A stretch of 40,066 nt of DNA from a virus. The notes under the pieces were generated by a model. It did not search any database, had not been told where the DNA came from, and saw nothing but the letters and a program-made list of their open reading frames with translations. The number at the start of each line of letters is the position of its first letter. Position 1 is the stretch's first letter. Of this stretch, positions 3,887-34,325 are shown in pieces. The translations under genes were made by a program, and so were the position numbers. The stretch lies in the UHGV virus genome UHGV-0132701. One strand, 5' to 3'.

Positions 3887-5344
3887 TTAAGTTAAACCAA
3901 TTAATCCATGCCCGGTCGAAGCATGTAAGTCCTGAATTAATGCTGCAACTACCTTTGCTAAATCTTCGTGAGTTATTGTTCCAGAGTTAAATGCTGCTCG
4001 GGATACGGTGCCGGTTGGCGAACCCCATCCCGTTCTCCTCTCTGAAATAACTTGATTGCCATTAAGTCGTATTCTTAAGTTGGTGAAATTAGCCCAGTTC
4101 TCAGTCCTGTTGAAACTCAAATATGTTGTATTTGCCGGGCCCGTTCCTACCGTAATTCGTTGATTGTCGCCCAACAAAATAGCGCAATTGTTACTGAACC
4201 CGGATTCAGTTAACGAAAGTCCGACGCGGAAGTTGCCGCTTCTGAAACGAATTCCGTTCGCTGCGTTTGATAAAATGGAACCCTCAAGGCGCATATACTC
4301 GCCATTGCCCACAACAGTGGTGACTTCCGTCGGTGCGACGATAGAGTCACCCCTGAACAACATGCCGGTCCAGATGAAACCGTTTGGCGCATTTAAGCCC
4401 CTGCCAATGTTGATCATGTGGGTTATGCGATTGCTACCGTCAGTGGTAGTGCATACCAGCCCCCTGGTGTTCCCTACATTCTCAGCGCCAACCATCCACC
4501 CAGCGTCCACACTGCATCCATTATTCATGTTGAATTCATGGATAATTGCGGATTTTGCGCCAGTGTTTAATCCTCCTGACCCAGCAGGGCCAGATACAGC
4601 GCCGTAAGACCATCCCCCCCACACTTCTGCATCCGCATGTCTGGCTTCTCCCCGAAAATGCCCTCCTACTAACTGGCCTGTGCCGCCATTATGACGAACG
4701 GCAGATGTCACTGCGGCGCCGTATGCTGATCCTCCTTGTTTCTCGAGATATCCGTAAAAGCAACCCTGTTCCCAGCGAGCTACGCCATCATCACGCGTGG
4801 CGTTGGATTTCTTTTCCACCCATAACACTGGATCCGGAGTATCAGTTAGCGGAATGGAAAATCTTTGGCGCATGGCGTTCGTATATTGAATTGAGCCGGT
4901 ATTGTAAATATTCACGCCGCCTGCATCGGCTCCAGACCAGCCAGTGCCCCCATATAAATTGTTCAGTCCATCTCCAGCGGGGCCAGCCAGGATCAATCGC
5001 AACTGGTCAGGGTCATATTTGAGTACATTCGGGAAATAATGTTGCCGAGCTCCGAAGGAGTCCAAGACCTCCATTGAATGTCCTTGCACGGTTACAAATT
5101 TTGAAACCTTCCCGTTATATACCGGGTAACCAGCAGCGTTAATGATGATTGGTTGCGAAACAGGAACGTGAGAACCGTCTTCATTCTCTACATAAACCTG
5201 AATCTGGTTTTCAGGATTTACCGGGTCAGTGTCAATTTTACCGATATAAATTTTGCCATTGGCTACGGCTTTAAAAGAACGCGCCATAGTGAAGAGTTGC
5301 GAAGGCATGCTTACCACAACATTTGCATTTATTGAATCTGTCAT
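3887..5344 (-). CDS. Tailspike protein: P22 gp9-like N-terminal head-binding domain fused to a divergent receptor-binding domain
   Basis: First ~110 aa ([62 protein letters not shown]...QGHSMEVLD...VLKYDPDQ) closely match the P22 tailspike head-binding domain; the remainder (485 aa total, shorter than P22) is unrelated to the P22 endorhamnosidase as far as I can tell. Confidence 0.9.
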
Positions 5345-5400
5345 TTAATTTGCTCCAGATACAAGGAATCACCGAAGCGTGGCTACGGTGAATTTTGGGC

Positions 5401-5427
5401 ATAAAAAAACCCAGCCGAAGCTGGGTC
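5401..5427 (-). terminator. Rho-independent terminator (minus strand) upstream of the tailspike gene
   Basis: CCCAGC-cgaa-GCTGGG hairpin followed by a T-run on the minus strand. Confidence 0.5.
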
Positions 5428-5534
5428 GTTGCGTTGGTTATCTGTCAGTAGTTATGTACTGAGGGAGGTAATTCTTTATTCTTAAGTCTCATCCATGCGG
5501 AAAGATTCGATTTGGTTAACCATTTTATCTCCAA

Positions 5535-5560
5535 CAAAAAACCCACCTGACGGTGGGTTT
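5535..5560 (-). terminator. Rho-independent terminator directly after the immI-position gene
   Basis: CCCACC-tgac-GGTGGG hairpin followed by a T-run on the minus strand, 6 nt after the stop codon. Confidence 0.55.
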
Positions 5561-5565
5561 CATAA

Positions 5566-6534
5566 TTAGATTTCTGGTTTCATTCTTCCGAAAACCTTTT
5601 CTATTCCTTTTTCGTATTCTTCTCTTGTCTCACTCATCGCTGCGACCCCAAGAAGCTTACCGATATGCTGACGCAAAGCCTTGACACCAATTTCAGAAAG
5701 GAACAGATGCAACTTATCAGATTGTTTTCCGTTCTCGTCTCGGCTGGCTCGAATCTGTTCAAGGATTTTACCTTTACTCTTTGCTAGCGGGGTGTATATC
5801 TGCATGTTGGTTAGCTGCCCAAAACGAATAGGCCGTCCTTTCTCTGGCCTATTCAGGCCGTACAATCGATACCACTCCTCGTATAACTCATCTGGAAATT
5901 CCTTTTCATATTGACGAGCCTCTTCACGAACAAACGCTTTGAACTCGTCAATGACAGCCTGAACTTCTGGGCGATAACCAGCAAGCGCATACGCAACCCC
6001 CTTAATTCCCGCCTTAGCGGAGGCATTAATAAGTCTCTGCGCTGCAGCCGCGGCCTTTAACCGTGATTGTGGTAGATCGTCATTATCTTTGGCTTCTATT
6101 AGTGCCCTACCAATATCAACAATTGCTGTAATGTCATAACCTAACGCTTGATGAACGGTTTTAGACTTCGAAGTAAGTTGAAATTTATAGGTATTTTCCA
6201 TTTTTCGCTGCAATTCTAGATCTCGGTATTTGCTCATATACTGAGCGCCAAGCAGTTGATCTAAATCCCTGGCATGTTCACCAATCCCTAGCAACTGAGA
6301 TAATCCAGTTTTCGTAACAACGACAGTTTTCGACTCGTCATCCAGTACATAACATTCAGCGTCAATGCCAAAATCATCTAAAAAGTTACCACGATGAGTT
6401 GCCCTGAGAATCTTACTTTTCCATCTTGCAGCAGCTGCTTTCTTTGCTATTTCAGAACGCTGCTCTTTAGTCAGCGACTTTGCGCGAGCGATCCCGCCCT
6501 TAGCTTTCCCTTCGCCACTTTTCTTTTCAGTCAT
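5566..6534 (-). CDS. Hypothetical protein (322 aa) at the immI/sieA-ant position between ejection proteins and tailspike; Lys/Ala-rich N-terminus, no transmembrane segment
   Basis: Long ORF with start MTEKKSGEG at 6534 (upstream in-frame codons lack an RBS and cover the promoter motifs). Moderately AT-rich; flanked by its own terminators; synteny with P22 sieA-hkcC-mnt-arc-ant accessory region. Function not recognisable. Confidence 0.6.
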   Translation of the reverse strand: MTEKKSGEGKAKGGIARAKSLTKEQRSEIAKKAAAARWKSKILRATHRGNFLDDFGIDAECYVLDDESKTVVVTKTGLSQLLGIGEHARDLDQLLGAQYMSKYRDLELQRKMENTYKFQLTSKSKTVHQALGYDITAIVDIGRALIEAKDNDDLPQSRLKAAAAAQRLINASAKAGIKGVAYALAGYRPEVQAVIDEFKAFVREEARQYEKEFPDELYEEWYRLYGLNRPEKGRPIRFGQLTNMQIYTPLAKSKGKILEQIRASRDENGKQSDKLHLFLSEIGVKALRQHIGKLLGVAAMSETREEYEKGIEKVFGRMKPEI

Positions 6535-6640
6535 AATGCAAGAACCTTTGTTGTGATGTATGCTTGCATTATATACACTGTACACACATACAAGCAAGCA
6601 TAAAACTAAAACAAAATGCTTGCATTACAACCGCGCTACT
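6534..6640. promoter_or_regulatory. Divergent promoter region with four copies of an ATGCTTGCA(TTA) operator-like motif (two direct, two inverted)
   Basis: ATGCTTGCATTA at 6560-6571 and 6616-6627; reverse-complement partial copies at about 6534-6542 and 6593-6603; lies between the 322-aa gene and a divergent small ORF. Confidence 0.45.
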
Positions 6641-6690
6641 CCAACTACACATTATCATCTGGTATCCTGCGCAAAACTAAGGAGGTTGGT

Positions 6691-6879
6691 GTGAAGAAAA
6701 AATTTGTAAACGTTGCAAAGTGCGCAATTTTTATATTTTTTATGACCTTTTACGGATTTAGTGCCGGAGAAGGTTTCGATCGTGATGCCAATGCATTCAG
6801 TTTCTTTTGTCTGTCTATAGTGGTCATAATTGTATGGGTGGAATTAAAGCAAACATTGTTTCATGTGCTAGGGAAATAA
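6691..6879 (+). CDS. Small hydrophobic protein (62 aa, two predicted membrane helices), GTG start
   Basis: Strong RBS aaggagg 6 nt before GTG; hydrophobic stretches CAIFIFFMTFYGF and FSFFCLSIVVIIVWV; AT-rich; divergent from the 322-aa gene. Confidence 0.4.
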   Translation: MKKKFVNVAKCAIFIFFMTFYGFSAGEGFDRDANAFSFFCLSIVVIIVWVELKQTLFHVLGK

Positions 6880-6896
6880 CCATCCATGGCATTTAG

Positions 6897-9089
6897 TCAC
6901 TGCTGTGTTGCCTCAGTGGCAAGCAGCGGTCTGATGGCATTTGCAGCTTTGCTTAACGCTCTTTCATAAGCTGGCGTTCCAGCTTTAGTGTTTGCCAGAC
7001 GTAAGAGCGCATTCCTAGCCATAGGGCTTTCATAAACCCTCGACATAAGGCCAATCCCTGTTTCCCCAGCCAATAGCGCGCCTCCGGTTTTTAGGTTACC
7101 AATAACCCTTACCAAAGGCGCGAGTGTCATGCCAGTCTTCGTCACAACATTAGCCTCAGATGCTCTTTTGGTAGCATCGAGAATAGATAACATCCCCTCT
7201 ATCTCTTTTCCGTTCTTCCCACCAAATACAGTTTTAAACACCTGACCATTTGCTTGTTTTTGCAGCTTGCCAAGCTCGGTCATCATTTTCTGAGGGCTGT
7301 CACCTACCTTGTCAGCTATTTTGCTGATATATGCCGCCCTTAGCATGTCTTTACCTTTTTGATCGAGTTTCCCGTACAATCGAGCTATATCTGACCCATA
7401 TTGTCCATACACAATGGTATTTACAGCCTCGGGAGTTAAATCTCCTTTGTTTAGAACGTTTTTAAGGCGCGTTTGAGTTGCATGTGTTGCCATTTTTGCA
7501 TAATCAGCTTTTCCCGCTCTCCATGCTGAAGCATCTTTTGGGCTAAGTCCTTTCGCTATAGATTTACTAAGGCTATTGGTTAGCGAGTTGTAGACCCTGT
7601 CGACCATTGTTTGCGACATTGATGGCAGAACTGTACGATCGCCTTTTACGTCAATGCGGAACTGAGTTCTCAGCTTATCAAGTAACTCAAAGGCATCATC
7701 TCCATTTGTTATCTCCTGAATGGCATTCTTATAATCATTAAGCGCAGAAATGGTCTGGGTGTCAGAAACACCTTTAAGTTTCCCAAGTTCGTTTACTGCT
7801 CCGTCGATAGCTCTTATGGCGCCACTTGTATCAACTGGCTTTCCAACCATTCTTCCTGACAGGTTGTTTAGTTTTGACTTGGCTAACGATTTTTCCCTTG
7901 CAACGCCTGACTTTAGACTATCAACGACTACAGATGGATCGTAGTCGCCGTATTTTTCGGTGAAGCGATTAACAAGCTTGGTTCTAGCATCCTGCTGTGC
8001 GGCTCTCATTGGTCCAGTCCCAGCTATGACTCCTTCTGAGTAACCCTGCAGTTGATTGCCAAGTTTTGTTTTTGGAGGAACTACATCCGATGTCATAACT
8101 GGTACATCTGCCGCAGCGGCACGCTTGAGCAATTGCTGATCTGCTGGTGATATTTCGCCACGAACAGCAGTAATTCCACGCCCTATTCCCTTTGCTGCTG
8201 CGGAAAGAACCCCCTGAGCGGCAAGGTTAACTCCGGCATTTTTAGTTGCATTTTGTGCGAAATCGCCTTTCTGATTTGCGGCCTCTGCCAGTGATCCAAT
8301 AGCCATGCTTCCTGCCGTTCCAACTCCTGGAACTAAATACCCGCCAATTGTTTCACCGGCTTGCGCGTAGGGGTCTGTCGGTCTGTCTACTGGACGATAA
8401 ACATCATCCAAAACCTTGGGCCCACCAAGCCCCTGACTGATTGCATTAATCAGACTTGCGCCACCCTGCAATACGTCAAATGGTATGTTTACCAGACCAC
8501 GACCAGCCTGTTCTGCAATTTGCCCTGCACTTTGACCACCAGTGAGCCAATCGCCAGCTTGTTGCATCAATGATGGTTCTTCTTTCTGCTGCTGAGGCGC
8601 TGCCTGTGTACTTTGCTGTACAGGCTGTTGTGTAGCTTGATTCTTCCTAGGGAGGTATTCATCAGCTTGCTGGTTGTGCAGACTCTCCGCATATGCAGTG
8701 GCATCGTCAGGATTGTCGAACATACCAAGATGCTTTCCCGTCCTCATGAAGTTATCAATAGCTTCATCATCAGACATAATGCGACCATCATCACTAACGG
8801 TAGGAATCAGCACCTCTCTACCATCTATATTGGTAGACATGCTCCGCACAGTGCTAATGCTGCCATCAGAGTTTTTAACAACAGGCCGATTGTGAATGTC
8901 AATATTACCCTTCTCTAGCAGACCTCTAGGGTAAGCAGAGTAAAACGCTTGTTTTGCCTGCTCTGCATTTTCTCCGGCTTGCGGGGCAACGACTTCATTG
9001 AAGTATTGTTCCTGAGCCTGCGCTTTTTGTTCTGGTGCTAACGCCTGATACTGTGGAGAGGCGATAACATCTTTCCATGCTTTAGCCAT
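6897..9089 (-). CDS. Ejection (injection) protein, P22 gp16 position
   Basis: 730-aa ORF in conserved synteny (gp14-gp7-gp20-gp16 order) after the tail needle; Gln/Ala-rich linker and Gly-rich segments typical of ejection proteins. Confidence 0.7.
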   Translation of the reverse strand: MAKAWKDVIASPQYQALAPEQKAQAQEQYFNEVVAPQAGENAEQAKQAFYSAYPRGLLEKGNIDIHNRPVVKNSDGSISTVRSMSTNIDGREVLIPTVSDDGRIMSDDEAIDNFMRTGKHLGMFDNPDDATAYAESLHNQQADEYLPRKNQATQQPVQQSTQAAPQQQKEEPSLMQQAGDWLTGGQSAGQIAEQAGRGLVNIPFDVLQGGASLINAISQGLGGPKVLDDVYRPVDRPTDPYAQAGETIGGYLVPGVGTAGSMAIGSLAEAANQKGDFAQNATKNAGVNLAAQGVLSAAAKGIGRGITAVRGEISPADQQLLKRAAAADVPVMTSDVVPPKTKLGNQLQGYSEGVIAGTGPMRAAQQDARTKLVNRFTEKYGDYDPSVVVDSLKSGVAREKSLAKSKLNNLSGRMVGKPVDTSGAIRAIDGAVNELGKLKGVSDTQTISALNDYKNAIQEITNGDDAFELLDKLRTQFRIDVKGDRTVLPSMSQTMVDRVYNSLTNSLSKSIAKGLSPKDASAWRAGKADYAKMATHATQTRLKNVLNKGDLTPEAVNTIVYGQYGSDIARLYGKLDQKGKDMLRAAYISKIADKVGDSPQKMMTELGKLQKQANGQVFKTVFGGKNGKEIEGMLSILDATKRASEANVVTKTGMTLAPLVRVIGNLKTGGALLAGETGIGLMSRVYESPMARNALLRLANTKAGTPAYERALSKAANAIRPLLATEATQQ

Positions 9090-32839: not shown

Positions 32840-33499
32840 ATGAAAATGAAATGGTATGAACTGGCTAGATCCAGAATGAAAGAGCTCGGCATAACTCAAG
32901 AGAAGTTGGCTGAAGAGCTTGGTATGACGCAGGGTGGAATTGGTCACTGGTTGCGCGGATCTCGTCATCCATCTCTTGACGAGATTGGTGTGGTGTTTAA
33001 ATACCTTGGTATTGATAACGTCTCATTCAACCACGACGGTACATTTTCACCTGTTGGCGAATACTCATCTGCCCCCGTTAAAAAACAATATGAGTACCCT
33101 GTTTTTTCTCATGTTCAGGCCGGGATGTTCTCGCCTGAGCTTAGAACCTTTACCAAAGGTGATGCGGAGAGATGGGTCAGCACAACCAAAAAAGCCAGTG
33201 ATTGTGCGTTTTGGCTTGAAGTTGAAGGTAATTCCATGACCGCACCAACAGGATCCAAGCCAAGCTTTCCTGACGGGATGTTAATTCTCGTTGACCCTGA
33301 GCAGGCTGTTGAGCCAGGTGATTTCTGCATAGCCAGACTTGGTGGTGACGAGTTTACCTTCAAGAAACTGATCAGGGATAGCGGTCAGGTGTTCCTACAG
33401 CCACTAAACCCGCAATATCCAATGATTCCATGCAATGATAGCTGTTCCGTAGTAGGGAAAGTTATCGCCAGCCAGTGGCCTGAAGAGACATTTAGTTAA
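32840..33499 (+). CDS. cI: CI repressor: S24 LexA-like autopeptidase domain identical in type to lambda CI, fused to a non-lambda N-terminal HTH domain
   Basis: C-terminal two-thirds ([134 protein letters not shown]) matches lambda CI; N-terminal domain ([37 protein letters not shown]) differs. Confidence 0.9.
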
Positions 33500-33530
33500 C
33501 AGCCTCACCACTCTAAAACACACAACAATA

Positions 33531-33559
33531 ACCCGACCTTAGCGTCGGGTTTTCTTTTT
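33531..33559 (+). terminator. Rho-independent terminator after cI
   Basis: CCCGAC-cttagc-GTCGGG hairpin followed by TTTTCTTTTT. Confidence 0.65.
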
Positions 33560-33624
33560 CCAAAATATAAACCCATTAAATACAAAGCGTTATAAAAAAC
33601 TAATTATATTTAGAACATTTTGTA

Positions 33625-33653
33625 TTGACTCGATAAAGTACAAATCGTACTAT
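33625..33653 (+). promoter_or_regulatory. Candidate pL promoter
   Basis: TTGACT (-35), 17-bp spacer, TACTAT (-10), oriented toward nutL and N; embedded in AT-rich operator-like DNA. Confidence 0.55.
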
Positions 33654-33693
33654 TTAGCCATCAGCAGGACGCACTAACCACCATTGAAGGTGA

Positions 33694-33724
33694 GGCTCTT
33701 AAAAATTTAGCCCTGAAGAAGGGC
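33694..33724 (+). promoter_or_regulatory. nutL antitermination site (boxA + boxB)
   Basis: GCTCTTAAAAA (boxA-like) followed by the lambda boxB hairpin GCCCTGAAGAAGGGC. Confidence 0.85.
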
Positions 33725-33992
33725 AGCATTCAAAGCAGAAGGCTTTGGGGTGTGGTGAAGCCAGCTAGTCACTGGCAAGTGCTTACCTACTGTTGAGCGG
33801 TGAAGCGCTCCCAACGCTAGCAATAGCGTGGACGAGATGGGGAGCCGCGGGCGATAAGGCCGCCATAACGCGCACGTTGTCGCATGGAAAAATCACTGGG
33901 GTGCCGGTTATACCCCTCCGAATGAGACTCAACAAGCTGGAGCTAGACTACCAGCCACCACACCACCAAAGCTAACTGACAGGAGAATCCAG

Positions 33993-34325
33993 ATGGATGC
34001 ACAAACACGCCGCCGCGAACGTCGCGCAGAGAAACAGGCTCAATGGAAAGCAGCAAATCCCCTGTTGGTTGGGGTAAGCGCAAAACCAGTTAACCGCCCT
34101 ATTCTCTCGCTGAATCGCAAACCGAAATCACGAGTAGAAAGCGCACTGAATCCGATAGACCTTACGGTGCTGGCTGAATACCACGAACAGATTGAAAGCA
34201 ACCTGCAACGTATTGAGCGCAAGAATCAGCGCACATGGTACAGCAAGCCACGCAGTGAAATGGGTGTGACTTGTGTTGGTCGCCAGAAAATGAAATTAGG
34301 CAGCAAACCACTGTATGAGGGGTGA
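33993..34325 (+). CDS. N: Antitermination protein N (lambda type)
   Basis: MDAQTRRRERRAEKQAQWKAANPLLVGVSAKPVNRPILSLNRKPKSRVESALNPIDLTVLAEY... matches lambda N including the arginine-rich boxB-binding motif. Confidence 0.95.
   Translation: MDAQTRRRERRAEKQAQWKAANPLLVGVSAKPVNRPILSLNRKPKSRVESALNPIDLTVLAEYHEQIESNLQRIERKNQRTWYSKPRSEMGVTCVGRQKMKLGSKPLYEG

What the first reader, a model, noticed from the sequence alone, without database searches (positions are those of the whole stretch)
5401..6879. Uncharacterised accessory locus at the P22 immI/sieA position: 322-aa protein, repeated operator-like motifs and a divergent small membrane ORF
Between the ejection-protein genes and the tailspike, where P22 carries sieA-hkcC-mnt-arc-ant, this prophage has a single soluble 322-aa protein of no recognisable family, bracketed by its own terminators (5401-5427 and 5535-5560). 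Its promoter region holds four copies of ATGCTTGCA(TTA) in both orientations, suggesting operator control, and a divergent 62-aa two-helix membrane ORF. This is a classic hotspot for superinfection-exclusion and anti-phage functions, so the locus is a good candidate for an undescribed immunity or defence module.
Basis: partly seen in the sequence, partly recalled or inferred. Interest (0 to 1): 0.7.

Follow-up and report, generated by a model that had tools for sequence, protein, structure and literature searches.

The report
Self-regulated P63C prophage accessory gene cassette
The 322-aa gene belongs to the known but functionally unstudied P63C phage family and forms a portable gene cassette whose conserved four-site DNA motif it most likely binds itself; it sits in prophage positions that usually hold anti-phage genes, but no such function has been shown.

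Summary
The sequence features are real, but two descriptions are wrong.

**The protein.** The 322-aa protein (5566-6534, minus strand) does have a family. It matches Pfam P63C (PF10546) and PHROG 2384, both of unknown function.

**The terminators.** Both lie 3' of the gene. The one at 5535-5560 is its own. The one at 5401-5427 is the old ant terminator, next to a remnant of the ant 3' end; mnt-arc-ant has been deleted.

**The repeated motif.** This is the strongest result. Four ATGCWWGCAT sites sit at -89, -66, -33 and -10 from the ATG, over the -35, the -10 and the RBS/start codon.
- The geometry is kept in about 45 distinct homologous loci.
- The sites show no RNA covariation.
- The sites track a 30-aa basic N-terminal mini-domain, not the body of the protein. 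Homologues that keep the mini-domain keep the sites, in alpha-, beta- and gamma-proteobacterial phages and partly in an actinophage. Variant mini-domains go with other repeats. Homologues without it have no repeats.

This points to autoregulation.

**Position.** The cassette recurs directly downstream of cI, the slot that holds rexAB and bstA, and in lysogeny modules across phyla. That suggests a prophage-expressed exclusion or abortive-infection role analogous to BstA-aba, but this is unproven.

**The 62-aa membrane ORF.** It is an independent occupant of the sieA slot, not a partner of the P63C gene.

The parts
5401..5427 (-). Relic intrinsic terminator of the deleted ant gene, upstream of the tailspike. 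It is not part of the P63C cassette.
   Evidence: Terminator scan and fold of -14.5 kcal/mol, z -3.2. Window 5345-5516 is 96-97% identical to 'ant | terminator' of epsilon34, Emek and CUS-3.
5445..5516 (-). Remnant of the 3' end of the antirepressor gene ant. It marks the deletion of mnt-arc-ant.
   Evidence: homology ends at window 5516. Annotated as a P22AR C-terminal pseudogene in the same arrangement in E. coli N9. Weak PHROG 377 Ant C-terminus hit. Intact mnt-arc-ant next to P63C in phage 611R6.
5535..5560 (-). Intrinsic terminator of the P63C gene; left edge of the cassette.
   Evidence: 10-bp GC-rich stem plus U-run, -20.9 kcal/mol, z -4.85. Homology with other P63C loci starts at about 5536.
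5566..6534 (-). P63C-family gene, 322 aa.
   Evidence: Pfam PF10546 at residues 199-286, E 7e-14. PHROG 2384 full length, E 7e-104. 1681 homologous clusters. 99-100% identical protein in E. coli prophages, WP_000136767.1.
6421..6507 (-). Codons 10-38: basic N-terminal mini-domain KAKGGIARAKSLTKEQRSEIAKKAAAARW, the proposed operator-binding module.
   Evidence: 62-76% identical in homologues whose bodies are 22-47% identical and that keep the same DNA repeats. Absent in homologues that lack the repeats. AF2 predicts two helices at low confidence. The motif is portable: 301 clusters, mostly small proteins with 1-7 copies.
6130..6417 (-). Codons 40-135: alpha/beta domain of the body. Together with the helices up to residue 200 it is modelled confidently.
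5677..5940 (-). Codons 199-286: P63C Pfam domain, helical.
   Evidence: AF2 helices with pLDDT 47-85. No PDB relative by sequence or fold.
6536..6545 (.). Operator site D (degenerate here: GCAAGAA core). It abuts the start codon and the RBS.
   Evidence: The core TGCTTGC at -10 from the ATG is near-invariant in the other loci.
6560..6569 (.). Operator site C (ATGCTTGCAT). It abuts and overlaps the -10 hexamer and covers the predicted transcription start.
   Evidence: invariant columns.
6568..6573 (-). Predicted -10 hexamer TATAAT of the P63C promoter.
   Evidence: Read from the sequence. TATWAT is conserved at this place in alignment A3. It was not called by the strict scan because the -35 is weak.
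6578..6593 (-). LexA-box-like element TTGTATGTGTGTACAG between site B and the -10.
   Evidence: [CT]TG-N10-CAG occurs at the same place in 13 of 26 divergent promoters, against 2.4% of shuffles. Two loci have the canonical CTG-N10-CAG.
6592..6601 (.). Operator site B (AAGCAAGCAT). It overlaps the predicted -35 (TTGCTT, 6592-6597, minus strand).
6616..6625 (.). Operator site A (ATGCTTGCAT), the distal site; right edge of the cassette at about 6630.
   Evidence: Phages without P63C share only 6638-6896 with the window.
6691..6879 (+). 62-aa two-helix membrane ORF in the sieA slot. It is an independent cassette, not a partner of P63C.
   Evidence: PHROG 21338, E 4e-45. 97-98% identical, unannotated, in JEP4, UPF_BP1 and phiv205-1, which lack P63C. 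Replaced by at least 9 other ORFs at the same RBS and GTG.

Best explanation
Window ~5536-6630 is a self-contained accessory ('moron') cassette. It holds a weak sigma-70 promoter, a four-site operator, a P63C-family gene and an intrinsic terminator.

**Proposed regulation.** The protein's own basic N-terminal mini-domain (about 30 aa, residues ~10-38) recognises the ATGCWWGCAT sites. These lie over the -35, the -10/transcription start and the RBS/ATG. The protein would therefore repress its own transcription and stay at a low, steady level in the lysogen.

**Proposed function.** The body of the protein is an alpha/beta domain followed by the helical P63C domain, and it would be the effector. 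Its most likely role is a prophage-expressed function that protects the lysogen against other phages, by superinfection exclusion or abortive infection. It would be analogous to, but not homologous with, BstA and RexAB, which occupy the same slot downstream of cI.

**What is shown and what is inferred.**
- Shown: family membership, cassette boundaries, conservation and geometry of the sites, and their co-occurrence with the N-terminal mini-domain.
- Inferred: that the protein itself binds the sites (about 0.8), that binding represses transcription (about 0.7), and that the effector function is anti-phage (about 0.4).
For: **Family.** Pfam P63C and PHROG 2384.

**Cassette.** The same ~1.1 kb unit is found at 98-99% identity in 74 of 5426 complete E. 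coli genomes, with different neighbours on both sides. It has its own terminator.

**Operator.**
- Sites lie at -89, -66, -33 and -10 in alternating orientation in about 45 distinct upstream regions, from proteins 59-100% identical to the window's, while the spacers diverge.
- Exact ATGCWWGCAT matches in 100 loci lie almost only there.
- No covariation supports an RNA helix: score 0.057 against 0.052 in shuffles (119/500). A C.A mismatch in 7 sequences is not compensated.

**Link to the N-terminal mini-domain.**
- ST104 orf23, Bups phi1 (Burkholderia), Lodos (Pseudomonas), Pkon1 (Paracoccus) and, partly, Barco (Gordonia) keep the mini-domain at 62-76% identity. Their bodies are only 22-47% identical. 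All keep GCAAGCA/TGCTTGC repeats.
- 933W, E192a and DC1 have variant mini-domains and other repeats: ACGTGCA, GTTAGATAT and AAGCAT-type.
- SI8, Midgardsormr38 and Javan515 lack both the mini-domain and the repeats.
- Pkon1 has an SI8-type body plus the mini-domain plus the sites, which amounts to a natural domain swap.

**Position.**
- 17 of 49 distinct upstream neighbours are S24/HTH CI-type repressors on the same strand.
- The order cI -> P63C -> N/24 is seen in ST104, SI8 and Midgardsormr38. This is the slot that holds bstA in BTP1 and rexAB in lambda (established knowledge).
- The order repressor -> P63C -> integrase is seen in a S. pyogenes prophage. The gene lies next to the integrase in Barco and near it in Lodos.

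**Precedent.** BstA is a 307-aa abortive-infection protein with an N-terminal DNA-binding domain and its own terminator. It has a cognate 63-bp DNA element that spans its own start codon (PMC8585504).
Against: - No binding, expression or phenotype data exist.
- No PADLOC model matches, although the BstA positive control scores 1.9e-124. There is no sequence relation to BstA.
- The N-terminal mini-domain is modelled at low confidence.
- The mini-domain also occurs in many small proteins. In the two such contexts examined, no ATGCWWGCAT was seen (by eye, by search). Its sequence specificity is therefore not proven.
- In phage 933W the homologue lies in the nin (delayed-early) region next to roi, not in a lysogeny slot.
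- A LexA-box-like element occurs in half of the promoters. That would fit an SOS-induced regulator better than a constitutively expressed defence gene.
- The -35 is weak, and the promoter was not called by the consensus scan.
Confidence: 0.55

Rival explanations
1. The P63C protein is a lysis-lysogeny regulator of the antirepressor or Rha/KilA type, possibly induced by the SOS response. It would act on the phage's own switch rather than against other phages.
For: - It lies in the immI antirepressor region. In JEP4 the same region holds Rha and KilA genes plus a C2-like repressor.
- It lies next to roi in 933W and directly after the repressor gene in many phages.
- A [CT]TG-N10-CAG element sits between the -35 and the -10 in 13 of 26 promoters.
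- From memory, not re-read here: P63C was defined by Iyer, Koonin & Aravind (2002) among domains shuffled with KilA-N and Bro-N regulators.
- There is a weak PHROG 518 (Rha-like) hit, E 0.17.
Against: - The same protein (98-100% identical) rides with unrelated immunity regions. The neighbouring CI repressors are mostly only 10-25% identical to the first one aligned. A specific partner is therefore unlikely.
- It co-exists with a complete mnt-arc-ant in phage 611R6.
- The window's CI has an S24 autocleavage domain, so it needs no antirepressor.
- There is no significant match to the Ant, KilA-N, Bro-N or Rha families.
- In the window the LexA-like box has TTG instead of the canonical CTG.
Confidence: 0.2
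2. The four-site array is, in addition to or instead of being an operator, a self-immunity DNA element like aba of BstA. Copies on the replicating prophage would titrate or switch off the P63C protein, so that the prophage is spared by its own defence.
For: - The array spans the gene's own start codon, as the 63-bp aba element does (29 bp upstream plus 34 bp of the gene).
- The pairing is cognate: different N-terminal variants go with different repeats.
- Four sites are more than simple autorepression needs.
- The sites occur nowhere else in the prophage.
Against: - This is purely an analogy.
- The overlap with the -35, the -10 and the RBS is already explained by autoregulation.
- Homologues without the mini-domain and without the sites exist in the same slot, so the array is not essential to the family's function.
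Confidence: 0.15
3. The inverted repeats act in RNA. Hairpins A-B and C-D in the leader would control translation or stability.
For: The arms can pair, at -10.3 kcal/mol each. Hairpin C-D has z -2.7 and would enclose the Shine-Dalgarno sequence and abut the ATG.
Against: - There is no covariation above shuffles, and mismatches are not compensated.
- Both arms are conserved in sequence, not just in their ability to pair.
- The -10 hexamer abuts site C, so the predicted transcript starts inside or after it and cannot form hairpin C-D. Sites A and B lie upstream of the promoter.
- Hairpin A-B folds no better than shuffles (z -1.6).
Confidence: 0.04
4. The sites are bound by a host factor, or by another phage protein, and not by the P63C protein.
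For: No binding data exist. The N-terminal mini-domain is poorly modelled. It also occurs in proteins whose genes lack such sites nearby.
Against: - The same sites occur in phages of Enterobacterales, Pseudomonas, Burkholderia and Paracoccus. They are present or absent together with the mini-domain, independently of the neighbouring genes.
- No other gene travels with the cassette.
Confidence: 0.06

Closest known systems
BstA-aba abortive-infection system of P22-like prophage BTP1 (Owen et al. 2021, PMC8585504)
   Same: - It is a single protein of about 310 aa with an N-terminal (putative) DNA-binding part and a C-terminal domain of unknown function.
- It is a self-contained gene with its own terminator.
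- Homologues of the window's gene occupy the identical slot, cI -> gene -> N/24.
- A short cognate DNA element overlaps the gene's own start.
   Different: - There is no sequence relation: hhalign probability 2.4%, BLASTP E 0.66, and no hit to the PADLOC BstA model.
- aba has CCCGCC direct repeats. Here there are four ATGCWWGCAT sites that overlap promoter elements.
- In the window the gene lies in the immI/sieA region, not after cI.
- No phenotype is known.
Lambda rexA-rexB (exclusion genes expressed from the prophage, between cI and N)
   Same: The slot is the same in relatives of the window's gene, and both are accessory genes present or absent among otherwise similar phages (lambda map from established knowledge).
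   Different: RexAB is a two-protein system that includes the membrane protein RexB. There is no match in PADLOC. In the window's prophage the cI-N interval is empty.
P22 immI (mnt-arc-ant) and other antirepressor modules (Ant, Rha, KilA-N, Bro-N proteins)
   Same: The genomic region is the same. Both have tightly operator-controlled promoters. The P63C domain was originally described among domains shuffled in such phage regulators (from memory: Iyer et al. 2002).
   Different: There is no significant match to these families. The gene co-exists with intact mnt-arc-ant in phage 611R6. In the window ant is deleted down to a 3' stub.
P22 SieA (inner-membrane superinfection exclusion protein; Leavitt et al. 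2024, PMC10883804)
   Same: The 62-aa ORF occupies the sieA slot, convergent with gene 16, and is a small membrane protein. sieA itself follows the same RBS in E. coli elppa4.
   Different: The ORF has 62 aa, whereas the sieA gene annotated at this slot in elppa4 spans 495 bp. No SieA family match was found. Its function is untested.

Membership tests
Pfam P63C (PF10546) / PHROG 2384 | Profile match above the curated threshold. | tested here: met
   52.6 bits against a gathering score of 26.1, residues 199-286. All 40 aligned homologues match. PHROG 2384 matches at E 7e-104 over residues 6-321.
BstA abortive-infection family | Sequence or profile homology to BstA. | tested here: not met
   No PADLOC hit at E <= 1, while BstA itself scores 1.9e-124. 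hhalign probability 2.4%, BLASTP E 0.66.
BstA abortive-infection family | [quoted passage not shown] | tested here: inconclusive
   Met by homologues in ST104, SI8 and Midgardsormr38, and by 17 of 49 distinct loci. Not met by the window copy, which lies in the immI/sieA region. The window copy does have its own terminator.
BstA abortive-infection family | Cognate cis DNA element (aba) at the gene's start that suppresses the protein. | not testable with these tools
   A cognate repeat array overlaps the start codon, but a suppressing activity can only be shown experimentally.
BstA abortive-infection family | Abortive-infection phenotype; block of phage DNA replication. | not testable with these tools
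   No experimental data were found.
Phage antirepressors (ANT, P22AR, KilA-N, Bro-N, Rha) | Profile match to one of these domains. | tested here: not met
Known anti-phage defence systems (PADLOC-DB v2) | Match to any of the 5027 models. | tested here: not met
   The window protein, the 62-aa ORF and four distant homologues were tested. The only hit is an insignificant one at E 0.005.
SieA (for the 62-aa ORF) | Homology to one of the SieA sequence types. | tested here: not met
   No Pfam or NCBIfam hit. The only match is PHROG 21338, of unknown function.
LexA (SOS) regulon | CTG-N10-CAG box in the promoter. | tested here: inconclusive
   The window has TTGT-N8-ACAG at 6578-6593. The element is in the same place in 13 of 26 promoters, and two of these have the canonical CTG. 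Binding was not tested.

The most novel reading that the evidence does not exclude
P63C cassettes would be a widespread, cross-phylum class of single-gene prophage defence (abortive infection or exclusion), found in Proteobacteria, Firmicutes and Actinobacteria.

In this reading the protein is held in check by, and distinguishes 'self' through, a cognate array of ATGCWWGCAT sites at its own gene. It would read these sites with a portable, previously undescribed DNA-binding mini-domain of about 30 aa (GGxARAxxLTxEQRSEIAxKAAxARW). The array would thus be a second, non-homologous instance of the BstA-aba principle.

The same mini-domain, found in 1-7 tandem copies in hundreds of small proteins, would be a new family of DNA-binding modules.
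Probability: 0.2. Interest if true: 0.8.

Novelty: new variant of a known kind. Interest (0 to 1): 0.6.

Why it matters
P63C proteins are annotated in many prophages, but the literature searched here holds no functional study of them.

This analysis turns 'hypothetical protein at a hotspot' into a concrete, testable model:
- a defined promoter and operator;
- a defined 30-aa candidate DNA-binding module, with natural swap and loss variants that predict its specificity;
- a positional argument that places the family beside RexAB and BstA.

If the defence reading holds, it adds a widespread single-gene system and a second example of a DNA-encoded self-immunity element. If only the autoregulation holds, it still defines a compact operator/repressor module that travels between phages of distant hosts.

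Tried and rejected
2. **Sequence searches of the PDB.** A single sequence, the family profile and the N-terminal peptide all gave nothing.
3. **NCBIfam and PADLOC.** No hits.
4. **Literature.** Searches on P63C returned only passing annotations. The Iyer et al. 2002 paper is not held.
5. **Search with the C-terminal P63C domain alone, to find other architectures.** It returned mostly short proteins, several labelled partial.
6. **RNA-hairpin reading of the repeats.** Rejected for lack of covariation.
7. **Two-gene module of P63C plus the 62-aa ORF.** Rejected because the two assort independently.
8. **Homology to BstA.** Rejected.
9. **Whether standalone mini-domain proteins also carry ATGCWWGCAT nearby.** Two contexts were looked at and none was found; the sample is too small to conclude.
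10. **A promoter for the 62-aa ORF.** No convincing sigma-70 promoter was found in 6626-6690, either by eye or by the scan.
Full report
**What is in the window**

Between the tailspike gene (3887-5344, minus strand) and the gp16-type ejection protein gene (6897-9089, minus strand) lie six features:
- an intrinsic terminator at 5401-5427, reading on the minus strand;
- a short stretch that ends at 5516;
- a second minus-strand terminator at 5535-5560;
- a 322-aa ORF at 5566-6534 (minus strand);
- a 156-bp intergenic region;
- a 62-aa ORF at 6691-6879 (plus strand), with a GTG start and a strong Shine-Dalgarno sequence.

The neighbours' identities follow from the annotation of near-identical prophages: tailspike or head-binding protein on one side, DNA transfer protein on the other.

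**Check of the observation**

The ORFs, the two hairpin terminators and the repeats are all there. Exact ATGCTTGCATTA occurs at 6560-6571 and 6616-6627. Inverted copies lie at 6592-6601 (9 of 10) and, degenerate, at 6536-6545. Counted over the whole 40 kb, the 10-mer is not over-represented: 4 observed against 6.0 expected. But three of the four hits fall within 66 bp. From that density I estimate about 0.015 hits per 100 bp by chance.

Two descriptive statements fail.
- The protein is not family-less. It matches Pfam P63C (PF10546, 52.6 bits against a cut-off of 26.1, residues 199-286). It also matches PHROG 2384 over its full length (E 7e-104). Both families have unknown function. RefSeq calls the identical protein 'P63C domain-containing protein'.
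- The gene is not bracketed by terminators. Both lie 3' of it. Window 5345-5516 is 96-97% identical to the 3' end of ant plus its terminator in epsilon34, Emek and CUS-3. The same stub is annotated as a P22AR C-terminal pseudogene in E. coli N9.

Phage vB_EcoP-611R6 shows the undeleted order: gene 16 / small ORF / P63C / mnt / arc / orf / ant / tailspike. The window's prophage has therefore lost mnt-arc-ant.

**The cassette**

The unit from about 5536 to about 6630 recurs at 98-99% identity in 74 of 5426 complete E. coli genomes, and in many IMG/VR viral contigs.

Its neighbours differ:
- On one side are mnt, the ant stub, or other genes.
- On the other side are sieA, a 134-aa ORF, a 122-aa ORF, or the 62-aa ORF.

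Phages that carry the 62-aa ORF but no P63C (JEP4, UPF_BP1, phiv205-1) share only 6638-6896 with the window. In P63C-bearing P22-like loci, at least nine unrelated small ORFs, mostly with a signal peptide or a transmembrane segment, follow the same RBS and GTG start. P63C and the 62-aa ORF are therefore independent cassettes in adjacent slots, not a module.

**The repeats are a conserved operator-like array**

I took upstream regions from viral loci whose P63C proteins are 59-100% identical to the window's; about 45 of these regions are distinct. The cores GCAAGCA / TGCTTGC / GCAAGCA / TGCTTGC sit at -89, -66, -33 and -10 from the ATG. The spacings are 23, 33 and 23 bp. The spacers and everything further upstream diverge.

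The placement relative to the promoter is as follows (read):
- A TATWAT hexamer directly precedes site C. In the window it is TATAAT at 6573-6568.
- An 18-bp spacer upstream of it gives a weak -35, TTGCTT, inside site B.
- Site D abuts the Shine-Dalgarno sequence and the ATG.

The arms could pair as RNA, but three things argue against that:
- On a 26-sequence alignment the pair counts show no covariation beyond shuffles: 0.057 against 0.052, 119 of 500 shuffles.
- Recurrent mismatches are not compensated, for example C.A in 7 sequences.
- The predicted transcription start lies inside or after site C.

This is the signature of a protein-binding site, not of an RNA helix.

**Who binds the sites?**

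Distant homologues give a natural experiment.

| Homologue (host) | N-terminal mini-domain (identity to window) | Body identity | Upstream repeats |
|---|---|---|---|
| ST104 orf23 (Salmonella) | 69% | 28% | same GCAAGCA/TGCTTGC sites |
| Bups phi1 (Burkholderia) | 76% | 47% | same sites |
| Lodos (Pseudomonas) | 72% | 22% | same sites |
| Pkon1 (Paracoccus) | 62% | 23% | same sites |
| Barco (Gordonia) | 72% | 27% | partly (one canonical site on the ATG plus ATGCGTGCAT) |
| 933W L0095 | variant (59%) | 26% | ACGTGCA/TGCACGT |
| Burkholderia E192a | variant (66%) | 26% | GTTAGATAT |
| DC1 | variant (48%) | 27% | AAGCAT-type |
| SI8, Midgardsormr38, Javan515 | absent | 25-28% | none |

The canonical mini-domain reads GGxARAxxL[ST]xxxRSEIA[KR]KAAxAR[WH]. 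The homologues without it start directly at the alpha/beta domain. In SI8 and Javan515 the gene follows the repressor gene by only 54 bp and 36 bp.

Pkon1 combines an SI8-type body with the mini-domain, and it has the sites. In E. coli M15 the operator plus the first ~38 codons are 96% identical to the window, while no similarity is detected over the rest of the gene.

Presence, absence and type of the repeats therefore follow the N-terminal 30 residues, not the body, the host or the neighbours. The simplest reading is that the protein binds its own promoter through this mini-domain and represses it. This remains inference, because no binding data exist. AF2 models the segment as two helices at low confidence.

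**The mini-domain is portable**

A search of 1.84 billion representative proteins with the 36-aa segment found 301 clusters at E <= 0.001. Most of the listed hits are 50-200 aa proteins with two copies in tandem; the number of copies ranges from one to seven. Some carry an XRE-type HTH domain, and one has a weak, sub-threshold match to a VWA domain. No Pfam family covers the mini-domain. Two such standalone contexts showed no ATGCWWGCAT. How far its specificity is shared is therefore open.

**What the body does**

Sequence and structure give nothing firm.
- There is no PDB relative by sequence.
- The full model gives only noise.
- PADLOC and NCBIfam give nothing.

Position is more telling.
- Among 49 distinct upstream neighbours, 17 are S24/HTH CI-type repressors on the same strand, separated from P63C by a terminator.
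- ST104, SI8 and Midgardsormr38 have the order cI -> P63C -> N/24.
- This is the slot of rexAB in lambda (established knowledge) and of bstA in BTP1.
- In a S. pyogenes prophage the gene lies between the repressor and the integrase.
- In Gordonia phage Barco it lies next to the integrase, and in Pseudomonas phage Lodos near it.

From established knowledge of temperate phages, these are positions where lysogenically expressed exclusion and defence genes are typically found.

BstA is the closest analogue. It is a 307-aa abortive-infection protein with a KilA-N-like N-terminal domain, its own terminator and high expression in lysogens. It has a cognate 63-bp DNA element (aba) spanning 29 bp upstream and 34 bp of its own gene, and this element suppresses the protein (PMC8585504). 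P63C is not homologous to BstA.

Two further points favour a portable function over a role in the phage's own switch. The neighbouring repressors are highly diverse. And the window's CI carries its own S24 autocleavage domain, so it needs no antirepressor.

**Counter-indications**
- In 933W the homologue sits in the nin region next to roi.
- Half of the promoters carry a [CT]TG-N10-CAG element between site B and the -10. In the window it is TTGTATGTGTGTACAG at 6578-6593. It occurs in 13 of 26 promoters against 2.4% of shuffles, and two loci have the canonical CTG. This could mean LexA control and would fit an SOS-induced regulator.
- The immI location and the history of the P63C domain among shuffled phage regulators (my recollection of Iyer et al. 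2002; the paper is not held) keep an antirepressor-type role alive as the main rival.

**Verdict**

The finding is a real, conserved and functionally uncharacterised cassette. The firm results are:
- membership of the P63C family;
- the cassette boundaries;
- the ant remnant;
- the independence of the 62-aa ORF;
- the conserved four-site array;
- the co-occurrence of the array with the N-terminal mini-domain.

| Claim | My estimate |
|---|---|
| The protein binds its own sites (autoregulation) | ~0.8 |
| The effector function is anti-phage | ~0.4 |
| The array also acts as an aba-like self-immunity element | ~0.15-0.2 |

The gene belongs to a known family, and the kind of element is known: a prophage moron with an autoregulated promoter. 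The specific operator-mini-domain pairing was not found in the literature searched, nor was the positional equivalence with rexAB and bstA across phyla. I rate it a new variant of a known kind, with interest 0.6.

Noticed in passing
window 6673-6693 and the same junction in L006-L037: The sieA slot works as a hot-swap site. At least 9 unrelated small ORFs (62-149 aa), mostly with a signal peptide or a transmembrane segment, follow an identical RBS (CTAAGGAGGTTGGTGTG) and GTG start. The mosaic boundary therefore sits exactly at the start codon.
   Followed up: partly
window 6421-6507 (codons 10-38); proteins P0179-P0326: The basic motif GGxARAxxLTxEQRSEIAxKAAxARW is a widespread mini-domain. 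It is found in 301 clusters (50% identity) at E <= 0.001. Most of the listed hits are 50-200 aa proteins with two tandem copies (range one to seven). Some are fused to an XRE-type HTH domain, and one has a weak, sub-threshold VWA match. No Pfam family covers it; there is only sub-threshold similarity to LEA_5.
   Followed up: partly
window 6578-6593 (minus strand): A LexA-box-like element, TTGT-N8-ACAG, lies between the predicted -35 and -10 of the P63C promoter. It is in the same place in 13 of 26 divergent promoters, and two have the canonical CTG-N10-CAG (L048, L063). Whether LexA binds is unknown.
   Followed up: partly
window 5345-5516: This stretch is a 3' stub of ant plus its terminator. 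The prophage has lost mnt-arc-ant (immI). E. coli E189 keeps mnt only, and phage 611R6 keeps all three.
   Followed up: yes
L064, L065, L066, L069, L070 (about 45 bp before the P63C ATG): In these loci only two sites remain (ATGCAAGCAT-N13-ATGCTTGCAT, directly before the ATG). This looks like a deletion between sites that removed the promoter core. A tRNA-like sequence lies just upstream.
   Followed up: no
window 32840-34325: The immunity region has a CI whose C-terminal half looks like lambda CI (S24 domain, ending ...[12 protein letters not shown]). It is followed about 490 bp later by a lambda-type N protein (MDAQTRRRERRAEKQAQW...). The rexAB slot is empty in this P22-like prophage.
   Followed up: no
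E. coli M15, NZ_CP185789.1 166343-166553 (hit H146): Only the operator region plus the first ~38 codons (window 6419-6630) match, at 96%, within a gene annotated as a P63C domain-containing protein. This is a mosaic junction right after the N-terminal mini-domain.
   Followed up: no
L051, L073, L074 (about 100-200 bp upstream of the P63C ATG): Canonical LexA boxes (for example TACTGTATAGATAAACAGTA) sit upstream of P63C, in front of divergently transcribed genes. In L074 the neighbouring divergent gene cluster includes an impB/mucB/samB-family (IMS, umuC-type) gene beside an integrase. The cassette thus also sits in non-phage-like integrative elements.
   Followed up: no
window 6277-6304 (plus strand): The only promoter-like site called by the scan in 5300-7000 (TTCACC-16-GATAAT with TG) lies antisense inside the P63C gene. 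It points toward the operator region and the 62-aa ORF, for which no good promoter was found.
   Followed up: no
L087 (phage 933W, NC_000924.1 17532-18581): 933W L0095 is a distant full-length P63C homologue (26% identity). It lies in the nin region between a DNA methyltransferase gene and roi. It has its own triple repeat, ACGTGCA / TGCACGT / ACGTGCA, just before the gene.
   Followed up: partly
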